Sequence record: NC_134264.1
Source: Escherichia phage Lindwurm
DNA length: 64,000 nt
Reading direction: 5' to 3' (one strand)
Shown here one piece after another: positions 2,028 to 60,568 of the stretch. Positions within the stretch are counted from its first letter, which is position 1, and every line of letters begins with the position of its first letter. The position numbers and the translations under genes are program-made. The notes under the pieces were generated by a model. That model was given only the letters and a program-made list of their open reading frames with translations. It had not been told where the DNA came from and did not search any database.

Positions 2028-2029
2028 AT

Positions 2030-3552: not shown

Positions 3553-3745
3553 AAAGTTTCTCCTCTAGTTCCATAACACGATTTTCATAAGAGGCACGCA
3601 ACTTTTCAATTGCCAGCGCACGCACTGTAACCTCATTAGAATTAATAGCTAATTGGGCCAGATCTTCTGTTTCCATACGTCCGTTGTAAATTAAGCGATA
3701 TTTAAGGTGTTTCACATTCTTAGTCATTATTAAACTCCACTGCAA
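3521..3745 (-). CDS. hypothetical protein
   Basis: 74-aa ORF in minus-strand operon. Confidence 0.4.
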   Translation of the reverse strand: MQWSLIMTKNVKHLKYRLIYNGRMETEDLAQLAINSNEVTVRALAIEKLRASYENRVMELEEKLYGILEADATR

Positions 3746-4100: not shown

Positions 4101-4199
4101 ACCTTTCTCCTCTCAAATTTATAAATCTATTATATATAAATTTTTGGCTGAAAGCAAATAAAATAAAAGCCAGGTCGACTAGCAACCCGGCTGATTAGC

Positions 4200-6074
4200 T
4201 TATTTAGCTCGAATATCCTGATGTTTCACTCTGCCCATCACCTCGTGCTGTTTACCGGGGTTAAATGGACGAGCACCCGGATTTCCAAGATACCCACAAA
4301 CTCGACGAGTTACTTCAAGAGTTTCGGGGTCATGATTACCACAGATAGGGCACTTAAATCCATCTTCGGATGCTATTGTTTCACCTAAGAATCCACATTT
4401 ACCACAAGAATCCACCGGAGTATTAATACCGAAGTAATGAACCTTACTAGCAGCATAATTAATAACCCATTCCAATGCATCTGGGAATCGTTTCATATCC
4501 GGTAATTCTACATAGGAAATACACCCACCAGAAGCAATCGGAGTAAAGTTAGATTCATAATCAAATTTGACGTTAGGAGCAACTTTACGTTCCACATCAA
4601 GGTGGTGAGAGTTAGTGTAGTATCCTTTGGACAGAATATCTTCATGCTCCGGGAAATATTCACGGTCTAGACGACAAAAACGGTCACATAGGGATTCTGA
4701 TGGTGTAGCATACAGGCTATAACCTAACTTAGTCTCTTCCTTCTTTTGATCGACCCTATCTCGCATGTACTGCAATACACGCTGAACAAACTTGATGCAG
4801 GTCTCGGACATTGTATCTACATCTTTGCCAAACATGAACTGTAGCATTTCATGGCAACCAATATACCCTAGAGATACAGAAGCACGGTTATAGAAATGAT
4901 CGAATACATATTCATCAGGCCCCAAGCGTAACCCAAAGGCTCCTGACATATAGAGGATGGGTGCAGCTTTAGCTTGAATGTATTTTAAGCGATCAACTCT
5001 CCACTCCAACGCTTTTAATGCTGTATCCACACGTAGCTCAAGCAAATCAAAGAATAGGTCAATATTTCCCTCAGCTTCGATAGCAATTCTAGGCAAGTTT
5101 ACAGAAACAACACCTAAGTTATTACGACCGGCAGTTTCACCATCTTCTGTAGCAGCTAGGAATGAACGACAGCCCATAGAAACTTTATAGTCTCCAGTAA
5201 CTTCTACAACCTTGTCATAACTGATATAATCTGGATACATACGTTCAGCAGTACATTTCATAGCTAATTTCTTGATGTCATAATTAACATCTCCTGGTTT
5301 CATATTTACGCCATCACGAAGTACAAATACCAGTTTCGGGAAGATAGCTGTACGTTTATTGATACCTAAACCATCCATGCGTACTTTCAGTATTGCCCTC
5401 TGTACTAGACGTGCTTCCCAAGAAGTTCCTAGACCAAAACCAAAGGTAATAAATGGACTCTGACCATTAGAGTTGAACATGGTATTGATTTCATATTCTA
5501 AACCCTGACAAGCGTCATAGACTTCTTTTTCAGTCATCTCCGTAGCCATTACGGATGCTTTGGCTTCATCCTTAGTCCAACGTTTTGCAAACGCATGATT
5601 TTTATCATAGGATTTACGAACATAAGGGGCTAATACTTCATCAAGGCGATCTACAGAAGTACCACCATACTGATGGGAGCTAACCTGAGTGATAATCTGA
5701 GCAGTAATAGCCGCCGCAGTAGTAATAGAGTTTGGAGTGCTAATTTCAGCATTACCAACCTTCATACCATTCTTCAACATATCTTCCAGAGCTACCAGAC
5801 AACAGTTAGTCATGCCTAATGCAGCATAATCAGCATCATGGAAATGAATATCCCCAATCATATGAGCATTTCGAATCTGAATTGGCATTTCTTCTAGAAT
5901 CAGATACTTACTCAATTCACCTGCAAGCATATCCCTTTGTGTAGGGAAACGTTCTGAGGGTTTATTGGCATTATTAAATAGCAGCTCTTCATCTGCTGAC
6001 CCTTCGATAATCTCTTTGCAGTTTCTAATTAACGCCTGCATTTCTTTATATTTTAGTTCTTCGTTACGATTCAT
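4200..6074 (-). CDS. nrdD: anaerobic ribonucleoside-triphosphate reductase (class III)
   Basis: 624 aa; C-terminal glycyl-radical motif RVCGYLG and CxxC zinc site (CGKC...CPIC). Confidence 0.9.
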   Translation of the reverse strand: MNRNEELKYKEMQALIRNCKEIIEGSADEELLFNNANKPSERFPTQRDMLAGELSKYLILEEMPIQIRNAHMIGDIHFHDADYAALGMTNCCLVALEDMLKNGMKVGNAEISTPNSITTAAAITAQIITQVSSHQYGGTSVDRLDEVLAPYVRKSYDKNHAFAKRWTKDEAKASVMATEMTEKEVYDACQGLEYEINTMFNSNGQSPFITFGFGLGTSWEARLVQRAILKVRMDGLGINKRTAIFPKLVFVLRDGVNMKPGDVNYDIKKLAMKCTAERMYPDYISYDKVVEVTGDYKVSMGCRSFLAATEDGETAGRNNLGVVSVNLPRIAIEAEGNIDLFFDLLELRVDTALKALEWRVDRLKYIQAKAAPILYMSGAFGLRLGPDEYVFDHFYNRASVSLGYIGCHEMLQFMFGKDVDTMSETCIKFVQRVLQYMRDRVDQKKEETKLGYSLYATPSESLCDRFCRLDREYFPEHEDILSKGYYTNSHHLDVERKVAPNVKFDYESNFTPIASGGCISYVELPDMKRFPDALEWVINYAASKVHYFGINTPVDSCGKCGFLGETIASEDGFKCPICGNHDPETLEVTRRVCGYLGNPGARPFNPGKQHEVMGRVKHQDIRAK

Positions 6075-6103
6075 TACACCCTCCTTCTCTAACTAAGACT
6101 ACT

Positions 6104-6132
6104 ATTATAACTCATTCGAGGGCGGATGTCAA
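6104..6132 (-). promoter_or_regulatory. consensus sigma70 promoter for nrdD operon
   Basis: Minus strand reads TTGACA-17 bp-TATAAT upstream of nrdD start. Confidence 0.6.
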
Positions 6133-6183
6133 CAATATTTTACTATAAAGTTCTGTAACATGATCTGAGTCAAAAAATTTTAT

Positions 6184-6212
6184 TTGCCAACCTCTATTAA
6201 AAATTGTATAAT
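6184..6212 (+). promoter_or_regulatory. T5-type early promoter
   Basis: TTGCCA-17 bp-TATAAT with A/T-rich upstream tract. Confidence 0.5.
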
Positions 6213-6324
6213 CACGCACTCGTGTATGCGATATAAAATGATTATCTAGTATCACACATCTCCCGTTAAAAGCAAGCAAATTTTTTATTTAAATGCAATA
6301 TCATAGGCTTATTTAAAATTGTAG

Positions 6325-6353
6325 TTGCTTTTTACTGTATATATTGGTATAAT
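6325..6353 (+). promoter_or_regulatory. T5-type early promoter upstream of phoH
   Basis: TTGCTT-17 bp-TATAAT. Confidence 0.6.
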
Positions 6354-6426
6354 ATATTTGTAAGTTGATAAACAAGATCTTTTTGTTGATCCTCTGTTAG
6401 CGAAGTACACTATAGGAGTGTTATTT

Positions 6427-7179
6427 ATGGGAAAAGCACGTCAAAAAAGAGAGAACCGCAATGGTTCAAGAAAGTGTGGCAACAAATATGAGAATAACGT
6501 AATTCAGGCTGATTTTTCTAATGATTACGCTAACCCAGTTGCTAAATCCCTAGTAGGTAAAAACCGCGAGCAAAAATCATATATCAATATGATCAAGAAC
6601 AACACAGTGACTGTGGGTATCGGTGAGCCAGGTACTGGTAAAACCTTTATTCCGTCCGTTCTTGCAGCTCAGGAACTCGTAGACATTCACTCAGATATTG
6701 AGCAAGTGATCCTCGTACGTCCTAATGAACCTCTAGGTAAGTCTCTTGGTATGCTTCCTGGTGATCTAGCGGAAAAGCTAGAGCCTTGGTTGGAGCCAAT
6801 AGCTGATGGTATGAAATGGGCCATCGGCGATCATGCATATAAGGGATATGTCGAACGTCAGAAAATTAAATTTTTGGCTATCGAACATGCTCGTGGCAGA
6901 ACTTTCAACAACTCCTATGTAATTGTCGATGAAGCTCAGAATATTTCCGTTGAGGCAATGATTTGTCTCCTAACTCGTGTAGGACAAGACTGCCGTTTAA
7001 TTATCTGCGGAGATATAGCTCAGAAAGACATTAAAGGTGACTCAGGTCTAGCACTCCTTATGGAAGTCTATGAGAAATACGAAAATGCCCCATTCTCAAT
7101 GATCGAATTGATTGATAACGTTCGTTCTGTTGAGTCTAAAGCATTCTATGATATTTTTAAAGACATGGGGAAGGTGTAA
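6427..7179 (+). CDS. phoH: PhoH-like ATPase
   Basis: Walker A GEPGTGKT; PhoH-like length; AGGAG 8 nt upstream of ATG 6427. Confidence 0.8.
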   Translation: MGKARQKRENRNGSRKCGNKYENNVIQADFSNDYANPVAKSLVGKNREQKSYINMIKNNTVTVGIGEPGTGKTFIPSVLAAQELVDIHSDIEQVILVRPNEPLGKSLGMLPGDLAEKLEPWLEPIADGMKWAIGDHAYKGYVERQKIKFLAIEHARGRTFNNSYVIVDEAQNISVEAMICLLTRVGQDCRLIICGDIAQKDIKGDSGLALLMEVYEKYENAPFSMIELIDNVRSVESKAFYDIFKDMGKV

Positions 7180-7180
7180 T

Positions 7181-7402
7181 ATGGGAAACGTCGTTCATCT
7201 GAGCCGTAAAACTAAAATACATCGTACTTCACTGAGTGCTGCTAATATGATTACACGTAAGGAAGGGGAAGAAAGTCCTAAGACAACCCTAGCGTGGAAA
7301 ATTGTAACCTCAAATCCAAATAAACCATTCAATTATAACGAGCTGAGCACCTCCATAGATATTCTATTAAAAGAAGTAGCTAGAGCTAAAGTAATTGAAT
7401 AA
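7181..7402 (+). CDS. hypothetical protein
   Basis: 73-aa ORF from ATG 7181 with GGAAGG RBS; track ORF 7112 trimmed to this start. Confidence 0.4.
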   Translation: MGNVVHLSRKTKIHRTSLSAANMITRKEGEESPKTTLAWKIVTSNPNKPFNYNELSTSIDILLKEVARAKVIE

Positions 7403-7429
7403 GCTAAAAAGCTAGACTGGTAGTATACA

Positions 7430-7462
7430 GGGCCTGAGTATGAAAATACTCGGGCCTTTTCT
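7430..7462 (+). terminator. rho-independent terminator
   Basis: GGCCTGAGTA/TACTCGGGCC stem followed by TTTTCT. Confidence 0.6.
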
Positions 7463-7477
7463 ATCAGAAAATTTTAT

Positions 7478-7506
7478 TTGCCTAATGACCGATAATAAAG
7501 TAGAAT
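7478..7506 (+). promoter_or_regulatory. promoter upstream of nrdA
   Basis: TTGCCT-17 bp-TAGAAT. Confidence 0.5.
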
Positions 7507-7544
7507 ATTCCTTAAATCCTGATAACTATAAAAAGGAAAGCCAA

Positions 7545-9875
7545 ATGAGCCATCGCATTGAAAAAGTAATTAAACGTGACGGTACTGTAGAAGACTTTGC
7601 TCCTGAAAAACTCAATGGTTGGGCAGAGTATGGTTGCAAAACAGTTGATGTAAGTTGGTCAGCCATTACTATGGCTGCTCAAAAAACTCTGCCTAAAGGG
7701 GTTGTAGATTCCGACACTCTGATGGATGCATTAATTAAAGCTGCTGAAAGTCTTATCAAAGATAACCCAGCATACGATGTACCAGCAAAGGAATTACGTC
7801 TTGCGCAAATGCGTAAACGCCTTTATGACTCTTTCGAACCACCTTCTCTACGCTTCTTCCATGACCATATGGTTAGCGTAGGTGCATGGGAAGACATGAG
7901 TGCATGGATTACAGATGAGCAATTTGAAGCTCTGAATCAGGTTATCGACCATGATCGTGACCGTCTTTTTACTAGTGGTGGACTGAAGCAGTTCTTTGAT
8001 AAGTATTCCCGTCGTAACATAGCCACTGGTGAAATTTACGAAACTCCGCAGTTTGCCTACATGGGTATGGCAATGGCGATGCTATCTCAACCTAACTGGA
8101 CAATTCTAGATGCAATCGATCTCTACAACGCAATGTCACTCCACAAAATCAACGTTCCTACGCCGCCACTGGTTGGTCTGCGCTCTAGTGACCGTGGATT
8201 TGCTAGTTGCTGCCTCGTGGATTCCACTGACACGTTGGATTCAATCGACACCGCCGAGCACATCGTCTTCAAAATGGTCGCAGCCAGAGCGGGAATCGGG
8301 TATCATCTTGAAAGCCGATCAATTGCTGATCCGGTGCGAAATGGGGCATTCCCGCATTCCGGAAAACTGCCATATTATCGACACATTGACCGCTCAGTAA
8401 AGGCCAATACTCAGCAAACTCGTGGTGGTTCTGCTACAGTGTCTTATCCATACTTCGACCCTGAAATCATTCAATTGATGCAGGTTAAGCAACAACGTGC
8501 TACAGATGAGAATAAAATCGATAAGATGGATTATTCTCTGAGCTTTAACAATCTTTTGTTAAAACGTTATCTTAAAAACGAAGATATTACGCTAATGTCA
8601 TACTTCTATGCTCCAGAAGTTCATGAAGCGTTTTATAGTGATGACGAGGCTAAATTTGAAGAAATCTACGTGGCAGCGGAGAAACGTGTGGCATCTCTTA
8701 CAAAGATCGACCACGAAGGAAGAACAGTTCCTGCAGCTCCTAAAGTCTCTGCAAAAGAAATCCTAGATACTTGGCTACGTATCCGAATGGAAACAGGACG
8801 TATGTATGCTCATCACATCGGGGAATCTAACCGTCACGGTAACTTCCTTGATCCGATCCGTATGACAAACCTTTGTGTTGAAATTACTCAGCCTACACGC
8901 CCGTTCCATCATATCACGGAACTGTATAAGACAAAAGAGCAGCTTGATCAAATGAAGCCGGAGGATATCGGTGAAGTATCTCTGTGTAACTTAGGTGGTG
9001 TTGTACTTGGACGCATGGAATCTCTGGCTGAGTGGGAAAAAACTTGCTACATCCTTCTGAAATTCGTTGATACAATTATTGAAATTCAGGATTATCCATT
9101 CCCAACTATGGAGTATACGGCTAAGAAACGTCGTAATGTTGGTATTGGCCTGATGAACGCAGCAGGTGCAATGGCAGCAGAAGGTCTGGCTTACGAAGGT
9201 ATTGAAGCTCGTAACTGGATCCACCGTGAGGCTGAAAAACTGTCTTACTTCCTGCATAAAGCCTCTGTACGCCTAGCTAAAGAACAGGGCGCATGTGAGT
9301 GGTTTGATCGTACTAAACCGTCTAAAGGAATTCTGGTAATCGACACGTACAAGAAAACTGTTGATGAACTGGTATCCGTAGGTCTAGAAATGGATTGGGA
9401 GTCTCTGCGTGCAGATATTCTGAAATATGGTATGCGTAACTCTGTTCTGACTGCTCAGATGCCAGGAGAAAGTTCTTCTGTTCTGTTAGGTGTTACTAAC
9501 TCTATCGAACCACCTCGTAAGATTGTATCTATCAAGGGTAGTGCAGTAAATAAAGTAATTGCAATTGCTCCGGGTGCAACCGATTGGGAAACGTTAATGA
9601 GCTATAAACTGGCTTATGATGTAGATCGTATCGAGTGGATCAAGTGGGTAGCAACTATGCAGAAATTCTTCAGTCAGTCTATCAGTACGAATATGTATTA
9701 TGACTACACCAAGTTTGAGAATGAAATCATTCCTGGCCCAGTAGTAGTTCGTGATTTCATGACTGCTGTTAAGTATGGGTGGAAAACTTGGTATTATGCT
9801 AACTTCAATACCGCAAATGGTGGAGGTGCTGGAGAAGAAGCAGCCGGTTGTGCATCCGGTGGTTGTACTATTTAA
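7545..9875 (+). CDS. nrdA: ribonucleoside-diphosphate reductase alpha subunit
   Basis: ATP-cone start MSHRIEKVIKRDG; NLCVEI active-site block; ~776 aa; RBS AAAGGAAAG. Confidence 0.9.
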   Translation: MSHRIEKVIKRDGTVEDFAPEKLNGWAEYGCKTVDVSWSAITMAAQKTLPKGVVDSDTLMDALIKAAESLIKDNPAYDVPAKELRLAQMRKRLYDSFEPPSLRFFHDHMVSVGAWEDMSAWITDEQFEALNQVIDHDRDRLFTSGGLKQFFDKYSRRNIATGEIYETPQFAYMGMAMAMLSQPNWTILDAIDLYNAMSLHKINVPTPPLVGLRSSDRGFASCCLVDSTDTLDSIDTAEHIVFKMVAARAGIGYHLESRSIADPVRNGAFPHSGKLPYYRHIDRSVKANTQQTRGGSATVSYPYFDPEIIQLMQVKQQRATDENKIDKMDYSLSFNNLLLKRYLKNEDITLMSYFYAPEVHEAFYSDDEAKFEEIYVAAEKRVASLTKIDHEGRTVPAAPKVSAKEILDTWLRIRMETGRMYAHHIGESNRHGNFLDPIRMTNLCVEITQPTRPFHHITELYKTKEQLDQMKPEDIGEVSLCNLGGVVLGRMESLAEWEKTCYILLKFVDTIIEIQDYPFPTMEYTAKKRRNVGIGLMNAAGAMAAEGLAYEGIEARNWIHREAEKLSYFLHKASVRLAKEQGACEWFDRTKPSKGILVIDTYKKTVDELVSVGLEMDWESLRADILKYGMRNSVLTAQMPGESSSVLLGVTNSIEPPRKIVSIKGSAVNKVIAIAPGATDWETLMSYKLAYDVDRIEWIKWVATMQKFFSQSISTNMYYDYTKFENEIIPGPVVVRDFMTAVKYGWKTWYYANFNTANGGGAGEEAAGCASGGCTI

Positions 9876-50235: not shown

Positions 50236-50836
50236 GTCGGATTTGCACATTGTGTTTCTAGAAATTTATGGTCGGATTTGCACAATTGCCTAAGTTTTTA
50301 GGAACATATAATCTCCTGAAAATGGCAGCATTATTTCGGGCCGAAGGCCCATGATTGCCTGAGTTTTTAGAGCCACAAGAATTTTCACTTGTCAAGCTAT
50401 TTTGCCCCATTTTGCTAATAAAATTTTACTTTATCTCGCCCCAAGCCCAATTAACCTAAATTATCTCAACTCTTCCCCAAAAACGCAGCAAATCAGGCGT
50501 TGCACGCCACACATGCTGCCCCCCTAGCTTCTCCCCTAATTTTCTCTCGCTCTCTCAACTTCTCCCCAAATCCACACAACCCACACCCTCCAATCGAAGT
50601 CACAAAAATCTTGTCGGTTTCGCACATCTTAATCCTAGAAAAACCATGTCGGATTTGCACATACCCCACAGGATTCGAACGCAGTTCGAGATTGCTGGAG
50701 TTTTTGGGAAAACTCCTTGTCGGATTTGCACACTATAAAAATTTTTCGGGTCGGATTTGCACACTACCAAAAATTGTCGGATTCGCACATACACGCCCGC
50801 ACGTAACACCCGTGGAGCAATGTCGGTTTTGCACAA
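50236..50836 (+). repeat. eight dispersed copies of 14-mer GTCGG(A/T)TT(T/C)GCACA
   Basis: Copies at 50236, 50270, 50612, 50647, 50718, 50749, 50775 and 50821. Confidence 0.8.
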
Positions 50837-50838
50837 AA

Positions 50839-50860
50839 GCGCAGGGCAATTGCCCTGCGC
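50839..50860. repeat. perfect 22-bp palindrome GCGCAGGGCAATTGCCCTGCGC
   Basis: Read directly; self-complementary. Confidence 0.8.
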
Positions 50861-50867
50861 TAAATAC

Positions 50868-51040
50868 GAATGATAATAAGAATCAATCTCATTTAGAAAG
50901 TGGAATGAGAATGATAATAATTCGCATTTAGAAAATGAAATGAGAATCAATCTCATTTAAGAAGTGAAACGATTCTCATTTAGAAAGTGGAATGCAAATG
51001 ATAATGATTTGCATTTAAGAATGGAAGTGAGAAACACTGT
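50868..51040. repeat. array of AATGAGAAT / ATTCTCATT-type palindromic half-sites
   Basis: Repeated TCTCATTTAGAAAGTGGAATG and ATGCAAAT...ATTTGCAT units. Confidence 0.65.
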
Positions 51041-51048
51041 TATTTAAG

Positions 51049-51141
51049 TTATCCACAGACTTATTAACAGCACGATTTGACTTGACAAAATCCTAGCCAT
51101 TTTGAGGCGTTATCAACAGACTTATCCACAGCTTATCCTAC
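51049..51141 (+). promoter_or_regulatory. DnaA-box cluster
   Basis: Perfect TTATCCACA at 51049 and 51122; 8/9 TTATCAACA at 51110; 7/9 at 51133. Confidence 0.65.
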
Positions 51142-51158
51142 TGTATAAATATACAGTA
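51139..51158. promoter_or_regulatory. LexA (SOS) box-like palindrome
   Basis: TACTGTATAAATATACAGTA, 19/20 to consensus TACTGTATATATATACAGTA. Confidence 0.6.
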
Positions 51159-51348
51159 GTCCTATGTAGTGAATAATTCTAATATAGCGTTAAAACGTCC
51201 TAGATCGCATTCTAACGCGTTTAATTTTGGTGGGGATACTAAAACAAGGGCAAAATTGGAGGAGGCTTGAAAATTAGTTAGCCCGCTAACGATCACACAA
51301 GGCGACACGTAACACCCTAACCATTAGCAGGCTAACCATCGCGGGCGC

Positions 51349-51369
51349 GGTTAAATGAGAATGATTCTC
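51349..51369. repeat. 21-bp palindrome AAATGAGAAT-G-ATTCTCATTT
   Basis: Perfect 10-bp arms; same half-site family as the 50868-51040 array. Confidence 0.7.
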
Positions 51370-51524
51370 ATTTGAGAGTTGGGGGCACTTCCTGATAGTT
51401 GCGCCCCGTGATTATTATAGTAGTGGGCAACCGTTACGCTTTGCCCACTCCCGCCACTCATCTTGATGCCTAGACTTGCGACGGCGTACTAAAAACCGCT
51501 TGTACCAGTGATTAAACCATCGTT

Positions 51525-51728
51525 TCATAAACCCTCCTCCGGTAGTCGATGCGTGATTTTTTCCTCTTCCCCGTAGGAATCCACCAAATGCTGATAATAA
51601 CCATCGTGATCATAAATCACTTTATCATACTCGCCACGCTCGACCGCTCGCCGATTCTCCGGCGTATCAGGCACGTAAAAAACGTCAACCATTGTACTAG
51701 TTTTGGTCACAACAATTTTATTGCTCAT
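51525..51728 (-). CDS. hypothetical protein
   Basis: 67-aa ORF, last gene of minus-strand operon. Confidence 0.45.
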   Translation of the reverse strand: MSNKIVVTKTSTMVDVFYVPDTPENRRAVERGEYDKVIYDHDGYYQHLVDSYGEEEKITHRLPEEGL

Positions 51729-51782
51729 AATAACTCCTAGTAAATATATATAATCTCATTGCAATACGCCAAAACTATATAG

Positions 51783-51998
51783 TTACTCATATTCTAGCTC
51801 GAAAATACTCTCACCATATAATTTGATTAAATCAATTAAATAAAACGCTGTGCCAGTATTATTATTTCTTCTTATAAATCTATGATGCGCGTCTTTAAAT
51901 ACAGTGAATACATCACCTGTTTTACCTACTCCCCATAAATCCTGTGTTAATTTTACCCGTTTAACCTTTAGCAACATATTCCAAGTAATTTCATTCAT
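51783..51998 (-). CDS. hypothetical protein
   Basis: 71-aa ORF; overlaps upstream stop. Confidence 0.45.
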   Translation of the reverse strand: MNEITWNMLLKVKRVKLTQDLWGVGKTGDVFTVFKDAHHRFIRRNNNTGTAFYLIDLIKLYGESIFELEYE

Positions 51999-52339
51999 TG
52001 CGCCACCTTTCGAAACGCTGTTTCAATACTATCCGCAGTGGATTGAATATATGCGCCTTTCATTATCAGGCGCTCAGTACATACCTTGCGGAAAATATTA
52101 ATAAAATCATCTTCATTTTCTGCAATTAATGCTTCCCCCATAACTTGAACGTCACAAGATGCAAAGGTCAAAAATTGAAACGCTAGTTCACGGGCAACGA
52201 CCGCATTGATTTTATAATGCGCCTTGCCCTCATAAATATTAATAACGCCCTTATAAGCTGGTGAAAGCTGATTTAAATAGTTTGCTAATAATGCCGGGCG
52301 GCAATTAGCAACAAAACGATTGCCCTCATAAATAACCAT
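51995..52339 (-). CDS. hypothetical protein
   Basis: 114-aa ORF. Confidence 0.5.
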   Translation of the reverse strand: MVIYEGNRFVANCRPALLANYLNQLSPAYKGVINIYEGKAHYKINAVVARELAFQFLTFASCDVQVMGEALIAENEDDFINIFRKVCTERLIMKGAYIQSTADSIETAFRKVAQ

Positions 52340-52466
52340 TCGACAACCTCCCGATTAGGTATCCAGATAAAAGCATAAAAATCCCCAATGAAATGGGGTC
52401 ATTTTTGAATAAGGTGGCGGTAAAACCGCCAACCATTGCAAGGGCAATAACGATAACGCTTTTCAT
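52326..52466 (-). CDS. small membrane peptide
   Basis: 46-aa hydrophobic hand-translated ORF; ATGA overlap with upstream stop. Confidence 0.35.
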   Translation of the reverse strand: MKSVIVIALAMVGGFTATLFKNDPISLGIFMLLSGYLIGRLSNGYL

Positions 52467-52675
52467 AGTACCCCACGAAACGCAGCGTAAAAGGTGGCAA
52501 AATGTTTAACCGTTTCAGCGATCACGTTGCCGCGCTTATCAAATTTTTTCTCGGTAACACGAAAAGCGTTTTTATTACGTGCTACATATTCGATTTTACA
52601 ATCTTCCCGCTCGAACGTGTTAGCATCCACCAGCTTAAAGCCTTTCGAACGTGCAAGAGAAACGTTGCGGATCAT
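52463..52675 (-). CDS. hypothetical protein
   Basis: 70-aa ORF with AGGAGAA RBS. Confidence 0.45.
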   Translation of the reverse strand: MIRNVSLARSKGFKLVDANTFEREDCKIEYVARNKNAFRVTEKKFDKRGNVIAETVKHFATFYAAFRGVL

Positions 52676-52677
52676 TT

Positions 52678-52827
52678 TTATTCTCCTTTACCAGTCATGC
52701 AGCCCAGCAGATAAGAAAATACAGCGATACCCGCGCCGATAATAACCGCGTGAACGCCGAAAGCTATTGCAAACAAAGATAAAATAGCGCCCAAGATACC
52801 CGCTAAAATAGCTCGAAAAATAACCAT
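52678..52827 (-). CDS. small membrane peptide
   Basis: 49-aa hydrophobic hand-translated ORF with AGGAGG RBS. Confidence 0.35.
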   Translation of the reverse strand: MVIFRAILAGILGAILSLFAIAFGVHAVIIGAGIAVFSYLLGCMTGKGE

Positions 52828-52876
52828 TTGTGATAGCCTCCTAGTTAGTGGGGCGAAAGTAACGCCCCGTTATTAA

Positions 52877-53107
52877 TTACATTAAAACAATTTTTGCCGC
52901 TTGTTTTTTGGTACAGTGTTCCGCTTTCAGGGTATCCAGCAAAAAGCCAGCCGTTTGCTGATCGATTTTATCGGCGTTATATAGTTCCTGTATGGTGTTA
53001 TAAGTTTTAGCAATACCGAACTCCTGCACCATTTCATGAATGATGACGCGGTTAGATACCCAGCCTTGCGCGGTAAACAGATGACTAGCAGAAGAATAAG
53101 CAACCAT
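52877..53107 (-). CDS. hypothetical protein
   Basis: Start MVAYSSASHL at 53107 with GGAGG RBS; track ORF extends to 53140. Confidence 0.4.
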   Translation of the reverse strand: MVAYSSASHLFTAQGWVSNRVIIHEMVQEFGIAKTYNTIQELYNADKIDQQTAGFLLDTLKAEHCTKKQAAKIVLM

Positions 53108-53213
53108 TTTAAGCCTCCAAATTTTTGGGAAAATTTTCAACCGTCCTCAAACGGTGTAAAGGCATTATAGCAAAAAAGGCCACCATAAAAGGCGACCTTT
53201 ACAAAACTTTACA

Positions 53214-53732
53214 TTAAACTACTTGTAAGGATTCAACATTGAAACATCGTTTCAATTCGTCATGTAAAACAGCGTATTCATCCCATCGGGTACTATCAGG
53301 GATATAAACAAGCTGTTTTAATCGGTTTGCATATATTACCGCTTTGTTATCAATTATCTCGACGCCACCATATTTAATAATTAATTTCATGACGGAATTA
53401 ATAGGATCGCCGCCGTTTACATATGTGCCGGATTTACTTAGCTGATAATGATAAAGGCTCGCATATACGTTTTCATTTTCATACCATTCGCCAGTTTCTT
53501 CGTCTTCGTAACCATCGCTACCAAAACGAGAAGCGTTATCAATAGCCATTTCATGGGCGAAAGCGTCCAGATCACAACCAGCGGGAACAAAATGTTCTTC
53601 CGTCCAACCTTCCCCGCAATAGCCAGTATGACAATCGACTAAAATGATCATATCGTGTTTAGCCGTGCTCACTTCCCCTAGCGAGAAGCCGTATTTTTCT
53701 TCTAACATAATTAGTCTTCTATTAATTAACAA
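53214..53732 (-). CDS. hypothetical protein
   Basis: 172-aa ORF with Cys/His cluster DCHTGYCGEGW. Confidence 0.5.
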   Translation of the reverse strand: MLINRRLIMLEEKYGFSLGEVSTAKHDMIILVDCHTGYCGEGWTEEHFVPAGCDLDAFAHEMAIDNASRFGSDGYEDEETGEWYENENVYASLYHYQLSKSGTYVNGGDPINSVMKLIIKYGGVEIIDNKAVIYANRLKQLVYIPDSTRWDEYAVLHDELKRCFNVESLQVV

Positions 53733-53772
53733 GGGAATAGTAAAGCGGGGAAATAATCCCCGCTAGATATTA

Positions 53773-54759
53773 TTACTCGTTTTCGGTGTTAGTGGTAAAA
53801 GTAGAGATATCGATACCTTTTACCATTTCATCGATCATCTCAGCGATGTTAAAACTTTGCACCATTTCTAACATTGCCGCTTCCATAGCCGCCCCTGCTA
53901 CCGCTTTCGCTTTCTGGTTAGTCGGGGCGTACTGGTCAACCGCTACACTCAGCAGGTTAGCGATCACTACACGACCAATCGGCGTATCAATATAGCCTTT
54001 GATCATAAACGGTGCTTTTTTAGCCGCTACTTTCGTGATTTGAGTTAGTGCAATTTTACCAGCTTCCAGTTTTGCAGCGTTTACAACAGCGGATTTATTA
54101 GCGGCAACGATATTAGCGATCTTGGTCATGGTATTTTTTCCTTTGTTTTCAGTAGTTTGAGTATTAACGCTTTGAGTGTTAGAGCTTACAACCTGTTTTT
54201 CAATATTGTCAATACTTTCTTCCCTTTCGAAAGAAAATCCGGCGTCAACAATATCGCCTTCATATACACGATCATATAATTCCGGTGGCAATAAAAAATT
54301 ACCGTTATCATCAAAAGCCAATATAGCTGCATAACGATAGCCATCATAATCTGAACGATTCCACCCAACTGATAAATGACGCCAAAATGAATCGAGAAAA
54401 TTTTCTACATCATAAAGATCATTATCATTAGCCTTATAGTTTTCTATCGAGAAAACTTCTAAGCCCGCCCCAGTATCGTAGGCTTTTACTGTGCTACCTT
54501 TTACTATTACAAAATCAGCGTCCGGCCCCCGACTAGTGAGCAATTGATAATCCTGATTATATAAAACAAGCGTTGCCCCTTGTTTATATAACGGTAGAAA
54601 ACTATTCATATTATATGCATCATAATCATCAAGAAAATTATGATGAATAGTTTCAACCTTGTTAATAAAATGTTTAATGCTGGTTGACTTGCTACCATCC
54701 AGCAGGTTGCGCAATGCACCTTTTAAAACGGTGGCGTTATCAGGTTTATACAGCCTCAT
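53773..54759 (-). CDS. hypothetical protein
   Basis: 328-aa ORF, first gene of minus-strand operon. Confidence 0.55.
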   Translation of the reverse strand: MRLYKPDNATVLKGALRNLLDGSKSTSIKHFINKVETIHHNFLDDYDAYNMNSFLPLYKQGATLVLYNQDYQLLTSRGPDADFVIVKGSTVKAYDTGAGLEVFSIENYKANDNDLYDVENFLDSFWRHLSVGWNRSDYDGYRYAAILAFDDNGNFLLPPELYDRVYEGDIVDAGFSFEREESIDNIEKQVVSSNTQSVNTQTTENKGKNTMTKIANIVAANKSAVVNAAKLEAGKIALTQITKVAAKKAPFMIKGYIDTPIGRVVIANLLSVAVDQYAPTNQKAKAVAGAAMEAAMLEMVQSFNIAEMIDEMVKGIDISTFTTNTENE

Positions 54760-55023
54760 TTGTTCGGCCTCCTCGTTAATCGGTGAGTGAATGATAAAGG
54801 TAATTTTCTAGCATAGGCAAATATTATTTTACCTTTTTATTTTCCTTGCCTAGCGCCTATTTTTATGATAACCGCGCAGCGATGTAGTAAAGAGCAAAAC
54901 ACGGCGAAGCCACCAGGCCGTCGCATTGAGGCTTTGCTTTAATATTACCTAACAGCGTTTAGCTCGTTAGAACGCGATTTAGGCCGCTTAAAATTGATTG
55001 CAGTCGTTAACACTACCTTTTTA

Positions 55024-55043
55024 CCCTGTATATTTATACAGTA
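55024..55043. promoter_or_regulatory. LexA (SOS) box-like palindrome
   Basis: CCCTGTATATTTATACAGTA fits CTGT-N8-ACAG with AT-rich spacer. Confidence 0.55.
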
Positions 55044-55051
55044 GGATAACC

Positions 55052-55133
55052 TGTGGATAAGTCTGTGTAAAAGTCCTTATATTGCCGCCTATCGTGTCAA
55101 GTTATTTTGTGCTGTGGATAACATTGTGGATAA
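55052..55133 (-). promoter_or_regulatory. DnaA-box cluster
   Basis: Three perfect TGTGGATAA boxes at 55052, 55113 and 55125. Confidence 0.65.
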
Positions 55134-55174
55134 CTTAAATGATAGTGGTTCTCACTTAGGCCGATAGTTTCTTA

Positions 55175-56679: not shown

Positions 56680-57087
56680 ATGACTAACGCTAAAACCGCA
56701 AAATTTGCATGGAATGAAGAAAATACCCAAAAAGCTGTTTCTATGTACCAGCAGTTAATCAATGAAAACGGTTTAGATTTTGCAAATAGCGACGGCTTAA
56801 AAGAGATTGCGAAAGCAGTAGGCGCGGCTTCTCCCGTATCCGTTCGGTCAAAATTGACCAGTGCAAAAGCCTATCAAAAAAGCGATAAGCCGCGCAAAGT
56901 TGGCGGCGGTAGTTCTATTCGTAAGGCTCACTATGTGCGCGTTATTGCAAAACACGCTATCGATTCCGGCATTATCAAAGACGCCGATGATCTGGCAAGC
57001 CTTGAAAGTGCTAAACTTGAAACGCTGGACGCCGTAGCGCAACTGTTAGGCGTTGCCGATGAAGTGAAACAGGCCGCAGGGGAATAA
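56680..57087 (+). CDS. A2: A2-like pre-early DNA-binding protein
   Basis: 135 aa (size of T5 A2); sits immediately upstream of A1-like gene. Confidence 0.5.
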   Translation: MTNAKTAKFAWNEENTQKAVSMYQQLINENGLDFANSDGLKEIAKAVGAASPVSVRSKLTSAKAYQKSDKPRKVGGGSSIRKAHYVRVIAKHAIDSGIIKDADDLASLESAKLETLDAVAQLLGVADEVKQAAGE

Positions 57088-57465: not shown

Positions 57466-59136
57466 ATGATTATTTCCGCAGAAAAACAAACCGTTATCCT
57501 GAAAATGGCCGCTGATTTCAATTTCTACGGTAAACGCCTGCGCGCCACTAAATTGGAAGTTTGTGACGATATTTCGAAAGCGGTATACGATACTACTAAA
57601 CACTCCACCGCTATCTGCGACTGGCTGGAAGCAAATAAACCAGCGAAACCAAAAGTAGCAAAAGTAGCAAAAGCCATTAAAAACGATGAGCGCCCCGAAG
57701 CGGCTGGGATTGTTTCTAGTACCGTGGAACAGTGGGAAGTAAAACAAGGTAAACGTTTTATTATTACGTCGATTCAGAATAATACTTTCCCGCATAAAAA
57801 CTTTTTAGCCTCACTGGAGCAATTTGCTAAATATATCGGCGCTGATTTGCTTGTTTCTAAGTATATTTATAATAAAAACGGCTTTCAAAATGGGGAAGGT
57901 GCCGACGGAATCATATTTGATTCCGTGTTTGATAAATATATTTGCAGCAAAAACGTGTTTTTGAATAACCGCCGTTTCGCTTTCATGGCTGAAATTAATG
58001 TTTTGCCCACCGCAGATTATCCGCTTTCAGGATTCGCAGAAACTGCAACGGCTTTAAATATTGAGGGGCTGGCAATTGGTCACGCTAAAATTACCGCTGA
58101 AAGCGTGCCAGCTTTAAAAGGTGAAGTAGTGCGCCGTATGTATTCAACCGGAACGGCAACACTCAAAAACTACATTCAGCAGAAAGCAGGACAGAAAGCG
58201 GAAGCACTTCATAATTTTGGTGCGCTGATTGTCGAGTTTGACGATGATGGTGAGTTTTTTGTTCGCCAGCTTGAAACAATGGACGAAAGCGGCATGTTTT
58301 ACGATTTGAATATTTGCGCCACTCCTTCAGGATGTTTTGAAACGTCGGGGCATGTTTTAGGCTTGCAGTATGGCGATATTCATGCAGAAAAACTAGATGA
58401 GGCTTGCGCTCAAGCGTCTTGGGGTCATGGGGATACTTATGGGCTTGTGGATATTCTCAAACCAAAATATCAGTTTGTACATGATGTGCATGATTTTACA
58501 TCCCGCAATCACCATAACCGCGCATCCGGTGTATTCCTAGCGAAACAGTATGCCGCCGGACGTGATAAGGTTATTGATGATCTTATCGATACGGGTCGCG
58601 TGCTGGAATCGATGGAACGTGATTTTAGTCAAACGATCATTGTCGAATCGAATCACGATTTGGCGCTATCCCGTTGGCTTGATGATCGTAATGCTAACAT
58701 TAAGGACGATCCCGCAAACGCGGAACTATATCACCGCCTGAATGCGGCTATTTACGCGGCAATCGGTGAACACGACGAAACGTTTAACGTGCTAGATTAT
58801 GCGCTGCGCAAGGTTGCAGGTTGTGAATTTAACGCCATTTTCCTGACAACTGACCAATCGTTTAAAATTGCAGGCATTGAATGCGGCGTACACGGTCACA
58901 ACGGCATTAACGGCAGTCGTGGCAATCCTAAGCAGTTTAAGAAACTGGGTAAATTGAACACGGGGCACACCCATACCGCTAGCATTTATGGCGGCGTATA
59001 TACCGCTGGCGTAGCTGGTAGTCTGGATATGGGTTACAACGTTGGCGCGTCAAGCTGGACGCAGACGCATTTAATTACCTATGCAAACGGTCAGCGCACT
59101 TTGATTGACTTTAAGAATGGTAAATTCTTTGCGTAA
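57466..59136 (+). CDS. A1: A1-like pre-early protein with metallophosphoesterase motifs
   Basis: 556 aa (size of T5 A1); GDIH and VHDVHD blocks. Confidence 0.65.
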   Translation: MIISAEKQTVILKMAADFNFYGKRLRATKLEVCDDISKAVYDTTKHSTAICDWLEANKPAKPKVAKVAKAIKNDERPEAAGIVSSTVEQWEVKQGKRFIITSIQNNTFPHKNFLASLEQFAKYIGADLLVSKYIYNKNGFQNGEGADGIIFDSVFDKYICSKNVFLNNRRFAFMAEINVLPTADYPLSGFAETATALNIEGLAIGHAKITAESVPALKGEVVRRMYSTGTATLKNYIQQKAGQKAEALHNFGALIVEFDDDGEFFVRQLETMDESGMFYDLNICATPSGCFETSGHVLGLQYGDIHAEKLDEACAQASWGHGDTYGLVDILKPKYQFVHDVHDFTSRNHHNRASGVFLAKQYAAGRDKVIDDLIDTGRVLESMERDFSQTIIVESNHDLALSRWLDDRNANIKDDPANAELYHRLNAAIYAAIGEHDETFNVLDYALRKVAGCEFNAIFLTTDQSFKIAGIECGVHGHNGINGSRGNPKQFKKLGKLNTGHTHTASIYGGVYTAGVAGSLDMGYNVGASSWTQTHLITYANGQRTLIDFKNGKFFA

Positions 59137-59676: not shown

Positions 59677-60411
59677 ATGAATCAAGTTAAAACGAATATT
59701 ACCCGTAATTTCCCGCATATTTCCCGCGTCATGATTTGGGATCTGGACGGCACTATCATTAATTCTTTCCATCGTGTAGCGCCTTGCTTTGATAGCGAGG
59801 GCAATTTAGATTTAAATAAGTATAAAAATGAGGCTTGCAAACATCATTTAATAATGCAAGATACCTTATTGCCATTAGTTGAATATATGCGCCAGTGCAT
59901 GAATGATGCAAATACTTTAAACGTTATTTGTACCGCTCGACTGATGAGCAAGTCAGACTATTATTTCTTGCGCAAACAAGGCTTGCGCGGTCGTGATAAA
60001 AGCAATATCCGTGTATTTTCCCGCGATACACTACACAAGTATTTTGAGGCTGATAAAGTTAGCGAGATATACCACAGCAAAGACGCAGTATACAAATCTT
60101 ATTATTTTGAATTATTTAAACAGCTATATCCGAACGCTGATTTCACAATGATTGATGATCATAAAGGTGTGCTATCAGCGGCGGCGTCATACGGATTTAA
60201 AACGCTGGACGCACAAGCCGTTAACGATATTCTATCAATCGGCGTGGCATTGATAGGCGGAACCTTTATTGATGAATCTCTCGATGATGATAATGATTAT
60301 CAGTTCCTAGCTGACCGATTGAAATTATGTTGGGAAAGTATGACCGAGGAAGAACGCGCAGAATATAGTTGCAGCCCTCAACAATATATTGAGAAATTAA
60401 AAGTTGCGTAA
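59677..60411 (+). CDS. dmp: HAD-family 5'-deoxynucleotidase (Dmp-like)
   Basis: 244 aa from ATG 59677; WDLDGTII HAD motif; RBS context AATCCCTTTAATGGAG shared with A1. Confidence 0.6.
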   Translation: MNQVKTNITRNFPHISRVMIWDLDGTIINSFHRVAPCFDSEGNLDLNKYKNEACKHHLIMQDTLLPLVEYMRQCMNDANTLNVICTARLMSKSDYYFLRKQGLRGRDKSNIRVFSRDTLHKYFEADKVSEIYHSKDAVYKSYYFELFKQLYPNADFTMIDDHKGVLSAAASYGFKTLDAQAVNDILSIGVALIGGTFIDESLDDDNDYQFLADRLKLCWESMTEEERAEYSCSPQQYIEKLKVA

Positions 60412-60568
60412 TAATTAAAGTTGAAATAGTCACGGTGTGTAATGATAACATGCCGTGACTATTAGCTTGCTAAGTACCGGGCGGTAATGAGACTCATTCT
60501 CATCTGGGAGGCCACTGGACACACCTCCATGTGTAATCTTATGAAATTTGGCAAAAGTCAAATTAGCG

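What the first reader, a model, noticed from the sequence alone, without database searches (positions are those of the whole stretch)
51525..55133. Nine-gene operon of unknown function bracketed by LexA-box plus DnaA-box modules
The minus-strand operon 54759 to 51525 (proteins of 328, 172, 77, 49, 70, 46, 114, 71 and 67 aa, tightly coupled with overlapping stops and starts, none with a recognisable domain) is flanked by two near-identical regulatory modules. Upstream is a LexA-like palindrome at 55024-55043 abutting three perfect DnaA boxes; downstream is a 19/20 LexA consensus at 51139-51158 abutting two perfect DnaA boxes. Paired SOS and DnaA operator-like sites around a block of unknown genes in the pre-early region suggest a host-state-sensing (DNA damage and replication status) takeover or counter-defence module. 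I am not aware of this arrangement being described.
Basis: partly seen in the sequence, partly recalled or inferred. Interest (0 to 1): 0.8.

Follow-up and report, generated by a model that had tools for sequence, protein, structure and literature searches.

The report
T5 injection-stop repeats carry SOS boxes
This is the already described first-injected ("pre-early") segment of a T5-like phage, flanked by its known inverted repeats with DnaA boxes. What appears to be new is that each repeat ends in a near-perfect binding site for the host SOS repressor LexA, kept throughout the phage family, which offers a testable lead on how T5 pauses its DNA injection.

Summary
The sequence observation is correct. 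CTGT-N8-ACAG palindromes sit at 51139-51158 (19/20 to the LexA consensus) and 55024-55043. Each abuts two pairs of DnaA boxes, and the two modules bracket a minus-strand gene block.

The setting is known. The window is a T5-like phage (Demerecviridae). [quoted passage not shown] The two modules are the published 131-bp inverted repeats IRC-spacer-IRD and IRD'-spacer-IRC'; the second is part of the injection stop signal (iss). Their eight DnaA boxes were described by Davison (2020), citing a 1987 paper.

The genes are not all unknown. One is the Ung-dependent nickase, and one is DUF7566 (T5.011, toxic). In T5 the genes hegG to 017 can be deleted.

I found no mention of the LexA reading of the palindrome in the literature I could search. 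The iss-side copy is conserved next to DnaA boxes in every Demerecviridae lineage sampled, including Vibrio phages whose A2 protein is only 36-42% identical. The same composite recurs in unrelated uncultured phages but only at chance level in bacterial genomes.

The sites do not look like operators of the operon. They more likely dock host proteins on the entering DNA. Function is untested.

The parts
51025..51156 (.). iss-side inverted-repeat arm, equivalent to T5 IRD'-spacer-IRC'. It is part of the injection stop signal in the terminal repeat.
   Evidence: Inverted-repeat pair I1; alignment with the other arm. The homologous T5 stretch is annotated as the injection stop signal. 541 phage records match it, at 1215 places.
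51139..51158 (.). Near-consensus LexA (SOS) box, TACTGTATAAATATACAGTA.
   Evidence: 1 mismatch to the 20-bp consensus. HI-like score 0.85, better than any of the E. coli sites I recalled (that site list is from memory). 33/35 unique iss-side homologues keep CTGT-N8-ACAG and 35/35 keep CTG-N10-CAG.
51049..51069 (+). Distal DnaA-box pair: TTATCCACA, a 3-bp gap, then TTATTAACA.
   Evidence: Paired boxes with 3-bp gaps match Davison's description.
51110..51138 (+). Proximal DnaA-box pair, TTATCAACA and TTATCCACA, followed by a third phased TTATCC that runs into the LexA box (12-bp period).
   Evidence: Tandem repeat TTATCCACAGAC, period 12, 2.5 copies.
55026..55157 (.). Upstream inverted-repeat arm, equivalent to T5 IRC-spacer-IRD (Repeat Region 2), between the two divergent pre-early gene blocks.
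   Evidence: Homologue in T5 at L001 about 6100-6230.
55024..55043 (.). LexA-like box, CCCTGTATATTTATACAGTA.
   Evidence: 3 mismatches, all outside the CTGT/ACAG core. HI-like score 3.96. 26/32 unique upstream homologues keep CTGT-N8-ACAG.
55052..55072 (-). Proximal DnaA-box pair: TTATCCACA and TTTTACACA.
55113..55133 (-). Distal DnaA-box pair: two perfect TTATCCACA.
53773..54759 (-). T5.011 homologue, 328 aa, DUF7566.
   Evidence: Pfam DUF7566 E 5e-115; phrog_4263. T5 011 is toxic and disorganises the nucleoid (Annor 2026).
53214..53732 (-). 172-aa ORF (164 aa from its first ATG), phrog_6741. No counterpart at this position in the T5 annotation.
52877..53110 (-). 77-aa protein. By order and size it corresponds to T5.012.
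   Evidence: phrog_5145; gene order and sizes versus T5. Homology to T5.012 was not aligned.
52678..52827 (-). 49-aa hydrophobic protein; by position the counterpart of T5.013 (annotated with two transmembrane domains).
   Evidence: Translation; phrog_5607. T5 013 is toxic and lytic.
52463..52675 (-). 70-aa Ung-dependent nickase of abasic sites ('T5.015' of the literature; T5.014 in NC_005859).
   Evidence: phrog_4227 E 1e-49; annotation of the T5 and phiR2-01 homologues.
52326..52466 (-). 46-aa hydrophobic protein.
   Evidence: phrog_19184.
51995..52339 (-). 114-aa protein; same length and position as T5.015 of NC_005859.
   Evidence: phrog_4379.
51783..51998 (-). 71-aa protein with no family match.
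51525..51728 (-). 67-aa protein; same length and position as T5.017.
   Evidence: phrog_6973.
54766..54844 (-). Promoter region homologous to the T5 promoter annotated upstream of T5.011 (TTGCCT-18-TATCAT with an A/T-rich upstream part).
   Evidence: 93% identical alignment to T5 6205-6505; T5 promoter feature at 6411-6489; promoter scan. Reported as experimentally characterised in T5.
54895..54915 (-). Conserved hairpin with T-run, between the upstream module and the 011 promoter.
   Evidence: Terminator scan; identical in T5.
50500..51024 (.). Remainder of the iss-type repeat region: direct repeats and AATGAGAAT..ATTCTCATT palindromes.
   Evidence: Tandem repeats; Fur-box-like matches; T5 iss annotation.

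Best explanation
What it is (near-certain). This is the right arm of the first-step-transfer (FST) DNA in the terminal repeat of a T5-like phage. It is a variable, dispensable block of pre-early host-takeover genes, flanked by the known ~131-bp inverted repeats IRC-spacer-IRD and IRD'-spacer-IRC'. Each repeat consists of two pairs of phased DnaA boxes and, at the end facing the genes, a near-consensus LexA operator.

How it most likely works (inferred). The repeats are cis-acting docking sites for host proteins that are already in the cell when the DNA arrives. They are not operators of the gene block. A DnaA oligomer would nucleate on the 12-bp-phased TTATCCACA array, and a LexA dimer would sit on an operator as good as or better than chromosomal SOS boxes. 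The copy that is universal in the family is the iss-side one, at the point where DNA transfer pauses at about 8% of the genome. I therefore propose that the LexA-DnaA complex is part of the injection-stop or anchoring structure, possibly also acting as a roadblock behind the operon's end. It would extend Davison's DnaA-only model. Release would depend on A1 and A2. The upstream inverted copy would be an auxiliary second docking point.
For: Identity. 527 T5-like phage records match the region. The T5 annotation shows the same gene order followed by the injection stop signal. Davison 2020 describes the inverted repeats and the eight paired DnaA boxes.

Site quality. 19/20 and 17/20 to the LexA consensus, with 0.01 such sites expected. 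HI-like scores are 0.85 and 3.96, and the next best site in the window scores above 10.

Conservation.
- Both boxes are present in T5 and in nearly all of 40 IMG/VR T5-like loci.
- Pooling the two paralogous copies, the CTGT and ACAG columns are 98.5% conserved, against 74% for the spacer and 68-75% for the flanks.
- The iss-side box, with DnaA boxes pointing at it, is present in Klebsiella, Yersinia, Pectobacterium, Pantoea and Proteus T5-likes. It is also present in Vibrio T5-likes (A2 36-42% identical) and in metagenomic relatives (A1 27-34% identical). In all of these it lies beyond the far end of the divergent gene block.
- BLAST of the module against Vibrio phages aligns only the DnaA-pair plus LexA core.

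Host-factor reading rather than a family-specific phage protein.
- The pattern TTATCCACA-N(0-30)-CTGTAT-N4-ATACAG gives 79 stretches in viral contigs. A mis-spaced SOS box gives 3, a reversed 9-mer gives 4, and 298 Gb of bacterial genomes give 8.
- The hits include at least three phage groups with no T5 homologues detected in the fetched stretches.

Position.
- The box is not at the 011 promoter.
- The gene content between the modules is variable.
- Deleting hegG-017 leaves T5 viable but with smaller plaques.
- The iss mechanism is still open.
Against: - There are no binding or genetic data for LexA, or for DnaA, on this DNA. Everything about function is inferred from sequence.
- At least the upstream copy seems dispensable. 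A contiguous hegG-017 deletion in T5 would remove it, though I did not see the deletion endpoints. 6 of 32 upstream copies have lost CTGT-N8-ACAG.
- A2 mutants still degrade host DNA yet do not complete transfer, so LexA cleavage cannot be sufficient for release.
- In T5 itself, three of the four iss-side DnaA boxes are non-consensus.
- In the unrelated phage groups the composite lies next to early-type promoters or terminase genes. That fits transcriptional or packaging roles equally well.
- All hosts involved share the same LexA motif, so no natural host-switch test was possible.
Confidence: 0.4

Rival explanations
1. First reader's reading. The LexA and DnaA sites are operators that make expression of the bracketed operon depend on host DNA damage and replication status.
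For: The sites are of operator quality. In the upstream module, a weak promoter-like TTTACA-17-TATCCT (55071-55043, minus strand) would start transcription inside the LexA box. On the other strand, TTAACA-16-TATATT (55007-55034) has its -10 inside the box. E. coli uvrB is co-regulated by LexA and DnaA (PMC6015884, listed).
Against: - The T5-homologous 011 promoter lies about 200 bp downstream of the box, with a conserved hairpin and T-run in between.
- The iss-side box lies after the last gene.
- The weak -35 is absent from the iss-side copy.
- The modules persist while the genes between them change.
- Vibrio-type relatives lack the upstream LexA box.
Confidence: 0.12
2. The palindrome is the target of a phage protein, for example the essential DNA-binding dimer A2 or an A1-A2 nuclease as in Davison's restriction-site idea. 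On this reading it only happens to resemble an SOS box.
For: A2 and A1 are conserved in all Demerecviridae, as is the palindrome. A2 is a double-stranded-DNA-binding dimer required for the second step. The interior TATAWWTATA is more uniform than LexA binding alone would need.
Against: - The match is to the full 20-bp LexA consensus, not merely to a palindrome.
- The same box next to DnaA boxes recurs in phage groups with no A1/A2 homologue detected nearby.
- The variants seen (CTGG, CCAG) are ones I recall natural LexA sites tolerating (tolerance from memory).
Confidence: 0.15
3. The repeat region serves genome-end biology, such as terminase recognition, generation of the terminal repeat or circularisation, and the host-factor sites are architectural elements for that.
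For: The iss-side module lies near the inner boundary of the terminal repeat. In phage K16 the annotated DTR (1-9371) ends within about 2 bp of the outer limit of the 161-bp module query (K16 9213-9373). It is therefore also close to the right physical end of the virion DNA. In viral families A and C the composite is in the intergenic region beside terminase and portal genes.
Against: - The distance to the annotated repeat boundary ranges from about 0 to 1 kb.
- The upstream copy is far from any end.
- Host DNA is degraded early, and the availability of LexA late in infection is doubtful (inference).
Confidence: 0.1
4. The palindrome is conserved only as part of a DNA structural element (a cruciform, or pairing between the two repeats), with no protein specificity.
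For: It forms the inner end of a 132-nt inverted repeat in a region full of palindromes.
Against: - The arms are only 9 bp.
- Vibrio-type phages keep the box without the second repeat.
- Conservation is of the base identities that match LexA and DnaA consensus sequences, not merely of self-complementarity.
Confidence: 0.05

Closest known systems
T5 injection stop signal and the IRC-spacer-IRD / IRD'-spacer-IRC' inverted repeats with DnaA boxes (Davison 2020, bioRxiv 10.1101/866236, which credits Heusterspreute et al. 1987, Wang et al. 2005 and Davison 2015)
   Same: This is the same element: a ~131-nt inverted-repeat pair in the terminal repeat, eight DnaA or DnaA* boxes in pairs with 3-bp gaps, flanking the rightward pre-early genes and adjoining the iss repeats.
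   Different: The text I could read never mentions LexA or SOS (0 occurrences). It treats the repeats as DnaA-membrane anchors only.
E. coli uvrB promoter region with LexA and DnaA sites (PMC6015884)
   Same: LexA boxes and DnaA boxes lie side by side on one short stretch of DNA.
   Different: At uvrB they overlap mapped promoters and regulate a gene. Here the best copy lies after the last gene, in a non-coding cis-acting region. The composite is at chance level in bacterial genomes.
LexA operators on mobile elements (phage GIL01 promoter P1, PMC4551915; from memory also CTXphi, coliphage 186 tum and colicin promoters)
   Same: A mobile element carries SOS boxes that match the host consensus.
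   Different: Those are temperate or plasmid switches, with the box on a promoter. This is an obligately lytic phage with no such promoter context.
DnaA-box clusters outside oriC that bind or titrate DnaA (datA, DARS; my own knowledge)
   Same: Closely phased consensus DnaA boxes with no adjacent origin function.
   Different: This one is on phage DNA, combined with a LexA box, and located at a DNA-transfer boundary.
Transcription-driven genome entry of T7 (my own knowledge)
   Same: Entry is stepwise, and the leading DNA carries host-recognised signals. Viral family B places the composite just upstream of a run of TTGAC-type promoters at what looks like a leading end.
   Different: In T7 the signals are promoters for RNA polymerase. 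No repressor or initiator sites are known to take part.

Membership tests
T5-type FST right arm with IRC/IRD inverted repeats (injection stop signal region) | Lies in the terminal repeat of a Demerecviridae genome, between the A2-A1-dmp block and the unique early region. | tested here: met
   A2 at 56680-57087 and A1 at 57466-59136 on the other strand. Synteny with T5, K16 and phiR2-01.
T5-type FST right arm with IRC/IRD inverted repeats (injection stop signal region) | A ~131-bp inverted-repeat pair flanking the rightward pre-early genes. | tested here: met
   132-nt arms, 79% complementary, 3869 nt apart.
T5-type FST right arm with IRC/IRD inverted repeats (injection stop signal region) | Eight DnaA or DnaA* boxes in pairs separated by 3 bp. 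| tested here: met
   Pairs at 51049/51061, 51110/51122, 55052/55064 and 55113/55125.
T5-type FST right arm with IRC/IRD inverted repeats (injection stop signal region) | DNA transfer actually pauses here (functional iss). | not testable with these tools
   Needs shear or Southern mapping, or qPCR, of injected DNA.
Gammaproteobacterial LexA operator (SOS box) | CTGT-N8-ACAG palindrome with an A/T-rich centre, close to TACTGTATATATATACAGTA. | tested here: met
   1 and 3 mismatches. HI-like scores 0.85 and 3.96 (PWM built from sites I recalled).
Gammaproteobacterial LexA operator (SOS box) | Overlaps or closely follows the promoter of the regulated gene. | tested here: not met
   The box is about 200 bp upstream of the 011 promoter, and the iss-side copy is after the last gene. 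Only weak promoter-like matches overlap the upstream box.
Gammaproteobacterial LexA operator (SOS box) | Bound by LexA and released on RecA-stimulated cleavage. | not testable with these tools
   Needs EMSA, footprinting or ChIP.
DnaA-box cluster / replication origin | Consensus TTATCCACA (TTWTNCACA) boxes, clustered and phased. | tested here: met
   5 of the window's 6 perfect boxes are here, against 0.61 expected. 12-bp period.
DnaA-box cluster / replication origin | Adjacent unwinding element and origin activity. | not tested
   Davison notes that T5 origins map near the genome centre and that replication genes are not yet injected.
SOS-controlled phage switch (GIL01, 186 or CTXphi type) | A LexA box on the promoter that decides lytic development of a temperate element. 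| tested here: not met
   The phage is T5-like and virulent. The box is not on a mapped promoter.

The most novel reading that the evidence does not exclude
The SOS box is a working part of the injection stop signal. On this reading, pre-existing LexA and DnaA clamp the entering DNA at the 8% boundary, which would explain why the pause needs no phage protein synthesis. A1/A2 action, with or without LexA cleavage after host-DNA breakdown, would release it. More broadly, a 'paired DnaA boxes plus consensus SOS box' cassette would be a recurrent device on the first-entering or end-proximal DNA of several unrelated phage groups (IMG/VR families A-C), and a previously unrecognised way for phages to use host DNA-binding proteins during genome entry.
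Probability: 0.25. Interest if true: 0.85.

Novelty: new variant of a known kind. Interest (0 to 1): 0.5.

Why it matters
How T5 stops its DNA after 8% and restarts it minutes later has been open for about 60 years, and a 2026 paper still calls the mechanism poorly understood. The only molecular proposal, DnaA boxes binding membrane DnaA, is untested.

A family-wide operator for a second abundant host protein, at better-than-chromosomal quality and directly abutting those DnaA boxes, adds a concrete handle that is easy to manipulate. Useful tools already exist: lexA(Def), lexA(Ind-) and recA hosts, point mutations in a 16-bp core, and the published T5 engineering methods.

If the composite also works in the unrelated phage groups that carry it, it would point to a general entry-phase use of host repressor and initiator proteins. 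If LexA turns out to be irrelevant, the finding reduces to a correct re-description of a known T5 element.

Tried and rejected
- **Mistyped pattern.** My first collection scan used an 18-bp SOS core by mistake (CTGTAT-N6-ATACAG). It found 3 stretches, none T5-like. I kept it as a spacing control and repeated the scan correctly.
- **Cultured relatives of families A and B.** Searches found none. There was only a 59-bp match to non-coding DNA near the ends of Pseudomonas Bruynoghevirus genomes, and that stretch has no DnaA or LexA boxes.
- **Literature.** No paper linked LexA or SOS boxes with T5, T5-like phages, Tequintavirus or Demerecviridae. Davison 2015 could not be fetched; Wang 2005 and Heusterspreute 1987 were not looked up.
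- **Genome-wide screen.** The E. coli phage-resistance screen (PMC7553319) says nothing about lexA or dnaA.
- **DRT4 paper.** The DRT4/T5 paper is unrelated to this locus.
- **Third palindrome.** The CTGT-N8-ACAG at 39679 is not SOS-like (HI-like 25).
- **Host-switch test.** Testing phages whose hosts have a different LexA motif was not possible, because every host found is a gammaproteobacterium.

Full report
**1. What the window is**

The 4.5-kb region matches 527 phage records, the best at 92-93% identity. All are T5-like phages (Salmonella, Escherichia and Klebsiella members of Demerecviridae).

The T5 reference annotation shows the same layout inside the left terminal repeat, which 'comprises first-step-transfer (FST) DNA; enters host cell first'. 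One strand carries dmp, A1 and A2. The other carries T5.011-T5.017, followed by the feature 'injection stop signal (iss)'.

In the window this is inverted. A2 is at 56680-57087 (+) and A1 at 57466-59136 (+). The T5.011-017 equivalents run on the minus strand from 54759 to 51525. The iss-type repeats lie at about 50500-51400.

**2. Check of the observation**

- CTGT-N8-ACAG occurs at 51141-51156 and 55026-55041. A third site at 39679 is unrelated. The expected number is 0.78.
- Against the 20-bp consensus TACTGTATATATATACAGTA, the two sites have 1 and 3 mismatches, where 0.01 such sites are expected per window.
- Five of the window's six perfect TTATCCACA boxes lie in the two modules (0.61 expected).
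- With variant boxes, each module has two pairs with 3-bp gaps.
- The modules are inverted copies: 132-nt arms at 51025-51156 and 55026-55157, 79% complementary. The SOS-like core is the inner end of each arm.

- The 172-aa ORF uses a TTG start.
- Terminator-like hairpins followed by T-runs come after the first two genes, so 'one nine-gene operon' is uncertain.
- Two proteins do have family assignments. The 328-aa protein is DUF7566. The 70-aa protein belongs to PHROG 4227, the nickase that cuts abasic sites made by host Ung.

**3. What is already known**

Davison's preprint 'Phage T5 two-step injection' (10.1101/866236) describes this arrangement:

- A 131-bp IRC-spacer-IRD in Repeat Region 2 and its inverted partner IRD'-spacer-IRC' in Repeat Region 3.
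- Eight DnaA or DnaA* boxes 'always in pairs separated by 3 bp'; the first was noted in 1987.
- The proposal that membrane-bound DnaA holds these boxes and so stops injection.

Other papers add:

- A BF23 paper states that experimental studies of the functional role of these sites are lacking.
- A 2026 PNAS paper still calls the second-step mechanism poorly understood.
- Annor et al. 2026 (10.64898/2026.04.02.716235) report that 011, 013 and 015 are toxic in E. coli and that 015 is the Ung-dependent nickase. They note that a promoter upstream of 011 has been characterised experimentally. A T5 mutant lacking hegG through 017 is viable but makes smaller plaques.

So the operon, the bracketing repeats and the DnaA boxes are not new.

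**4. What seems not to be known**

Davison's text contains no occurrence of 'LexA' or 'SOS', and neither does Annor et al.. Six full-text searches combining LexA or SOS-box terms with T5, T5-like, Tequintavirus or Demerecviridae returned nothing relevant. I could not read Heusterspreute 1987, Wang 2005 or Davison 2015, so prior mention there cannot be excluded.

**5. Is the palindrome a credible LexA site?**

On it the iss-side site has a heterology-index-like score of 0.85, better than every site in the list (minimum 2.25). The upstream site scores 3.96, in the range of strong operators. Nothing else in the window scores below 10.

**6. Conservation**

- T5 itself has CTGTATAAATATACAG at both positions.
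- Nearly all of 40 A2-anchored T5-like loci from IMG/VR have the iss-side box, and most have the upstream one.
- I collected homologous modules by BLAST, not by motif, which gave 67 unique sequences. 33/35 iss-side copies keep CTGT-N8-ACAG and 35/35 keep CTG-N10-CAG. 26/32 upstream copies keep the core.
- Pooling the two long-diverged paralogous copies, the CTGT and ACAG columns are 98.5% conserved and the perfect DnaA boxes about 95%. The spacer is 74% and the flanks 68-75%.
- The exceptions are CTGG, CCAG or ACAA variants. From memory, CTGG and CCAG occur in natural LexA sites.

The strongest evidence comes from distant relatives. All of the following carry a box with 1-4 mismatches to the consensus, with TTATCCACA boxes pointing at it, beyond the far end of the gene block that diverges from A2:

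- Klebsiella (A2 66% identical), Yersinia phiR2-01 (duplicated unit), Pectobacterium My1, Pantoea AAS21 and Proteus PM135.
- Four Vibrio phages of other subfamilies (A2 36-42% identical).
- Several metagenomic relatives (A1 27-34% identical).

In the Vibrio-type phages the A2-proximal region has DnaA-box clusters but usually no SOS box. This agrees with Davison's remark that some types carry only IRD'-spacer-IRC'. BLAST of the 161-bp module finds 541 phage records at 1215 places. Against Vibrio phages, only the DnaA-pair plus SOS-box core aligns.

**7. Is the composite specific?**

| Pattern or collection | Stretches found |
|---|---|
| TTATCCACA-N(0-30)-CTGTAT-N4-ATACAG, IMG/VR viral contigs | 79 |
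| Same, SOS core mis-spaced by 2 bp | 3 |
| Same, DnaA box reversed | 4 |
| Same, DnaA box in the opposite orientation | 15 (mostly the same loci) |
| Correct pattern, 298 Gb of bacterial and archaeal genomes | 8 |

Of the eight genome hits, one is a T5-like contaminant contig, one matches family D, and the others show no extended SOS consensus.

About 23 of the 79 viral stretches show no T5 homologue in the fetched DNA. They fall into several sequence families:

- **Family A** has two tandem DnaA boxes on each side of the SOS box, in an intergenic region beside terminase and portal genes.
- **Family C** is also next to a terminase gene.
- **Family B** (contigs of about 45 kb) has a 1.1-kb non-coding region. 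In order, it contains TATA-rich repeats, a T5-iss-like or Fur-box-like palindrome, two DnaA boxes, the SOS box and a run of TTGAC-type promoters leading into plus-strand genes.

This recurrence in phages without detectable A1/A2 favours host proteins as the readers of the motif, rather than a Demerecviridae-specific protein.

**8. Why the sites are unlikely to be operators of the gene block**

- The window aligns to T5 at 93% identity from the SOS box to the start codon. This places the T5-annotated 011 promoter at about 54844-54766. Its -35 is about 200 bp from the box, and a conserved hairpin with T-run (54915-54895) lies between them.
- The iss-side box is beyond the last gene.
- The gene content between the modules varies widely among relatives, and in T5 it is dispensable.
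- Only weak promoter-like matches overlap the upstream box: TTTACA-17-TATCCT on the minus strand and TTAACA-16-TATATT on the plus strand. The first is not shared by the iss-side copy.

**9. Mechanism I commit to, and its status**

*Shown:* identity of the element; quality, enrichment and conservation of the SOS-like box and DnaA boxes; and their position at the iss.

*Inferred:* that LexA and DnaA bind. For LexA in vitro I would put this at about 0.85, on sequence alone.

*Further inferred* (about 0.4 for a role in DNA entry, and less for any specific version): the complex is part of the pause or anchor structure at the 8% boundary. It would extend Davison's DnaA model by adding a second abundant protein that is already present in the cell. 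That fits a pause needing no phage protein synthesis.

A simple 'LexA cleavage releases the DNA' model is not sufficient, because A2 mutants degrade host DNA but do not complete transfer.

Rivals are a true SOS/DnaA-regulated promoter, an A2 or A1-A2 target, a packaging or terminal-repeat function, and a purely structural role. The A2 model (pLDDT 85.6) shows small helical DNA-binding domains of Myb/GcrA/MogR type with weak scores and is not LexA-like. That neither supports nor excludes A2 binding.

**10. Verdict**

The residual novelty is the family-wide, consensus-grade SOS box fused to the DnaA-box array, together with its recurrence in other phage groups. Its value is that it makes an old question directly testable.

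Noticed in passing
window 50869-51372 (also 60486-60501): Fur-box-like palindromes. AATGATAATCATTATC with up to 3 mismatches gives 13 hits in the window against 1.8 expected. Nine of them cluster on both sides of the iss-side DnaA/LexA module; these are the AATGAGAAT..ATTCTCATT palindromes of the iss. Hits at 60283-60304 are inside the dmp-like ORF and are probably chance.
   Followed up: partly
IMG/VR loci L065, L095, L126, L127, L089 (family A); L066, L121, L123, L125, L130 (family B); L064, L128, L087 (family C): Uncultured phage contigs with no T5 homologue in the fetched DNA carry tandem TTATCCACA boxes fused to a CTGTAT-N4-ATACAG box. The composite sits in long non-coding regions beside terminase/portal genes, or between tail-fibre genes and a promoter-rich early region. 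No cultured relatives were found.
   Followed up: partly
window 55071-55043 (-), 54915-54895 (-), 55007-55034 (+): A weak promoter-like site would start transcription inside the upstream SOS box, and a hairpin with T-run that is conserved in T5 lies about 125 nt downstream. Together these could give a short SOS-controlled RNA. On the other strand, a promoter-like site has its -10 inside the box and points towards the 009/hdi/A2 side.
   Followed up: no
window 53764-53744 and 53200-53175 (-): Terminator-like hairpins with T-runs directly follow the 328-aa and 172-aa genes, so the 'nine-gene operon' may be three transcription units. T5 annotates a terminator after T5.011 as well.
   Followed up: partly
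window 51110-51141: TTATC(A/C)ACAG(A)C repeats with a 12-bp period, and a third TTATCC overlaps the TAC of the SOS box. A DnaA filament and LexA would therefore touch or compete.
   Followed up: no
L043 ~8194-8230, L044 ~501-540, L048 ~7774-7800: Vibrio phages phi3 and Athena, and Pectobacterium My1, carry an extra upstream unit: TTATCCACA followed directly by CTGTATAWWYATACAT (an SOS box with one core mismatch) and then ..CTAAAAC. The basic DnaA-box/SOS-box unit therefore appears to be duplicated in tandem.
   Followed up: no
L086 7275-8134; L085 3222-3618; L096 2425-2821: Distant T5-like metagenomic relatives have dense clusters of perfect DnaA boxes, up to 10 in 860 bp, in the A2-proximal non-coding region, with no SOS box there.
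   Followed up: no
L133 (RZZU01000077.1, 3015 bp, labelled as a Clostridia MAG): This small contig, filed under a Clostridia metagenome-assembled genome, is a T5-like FST fragment carrying both modules in inverted orientation. It is probably a binning contaminant.
   Followed up: partly
L045 7028 and 7129 (Yersinia phage phiR2-01): The iss-side SOS-box unit is duplicated 101 bp apart, giving three SOS-like boxes per terminal repeat. This is consistent with the IRD' duplication Davison mentions.
   Followed up: no
[not shown]
   Followed up: partly
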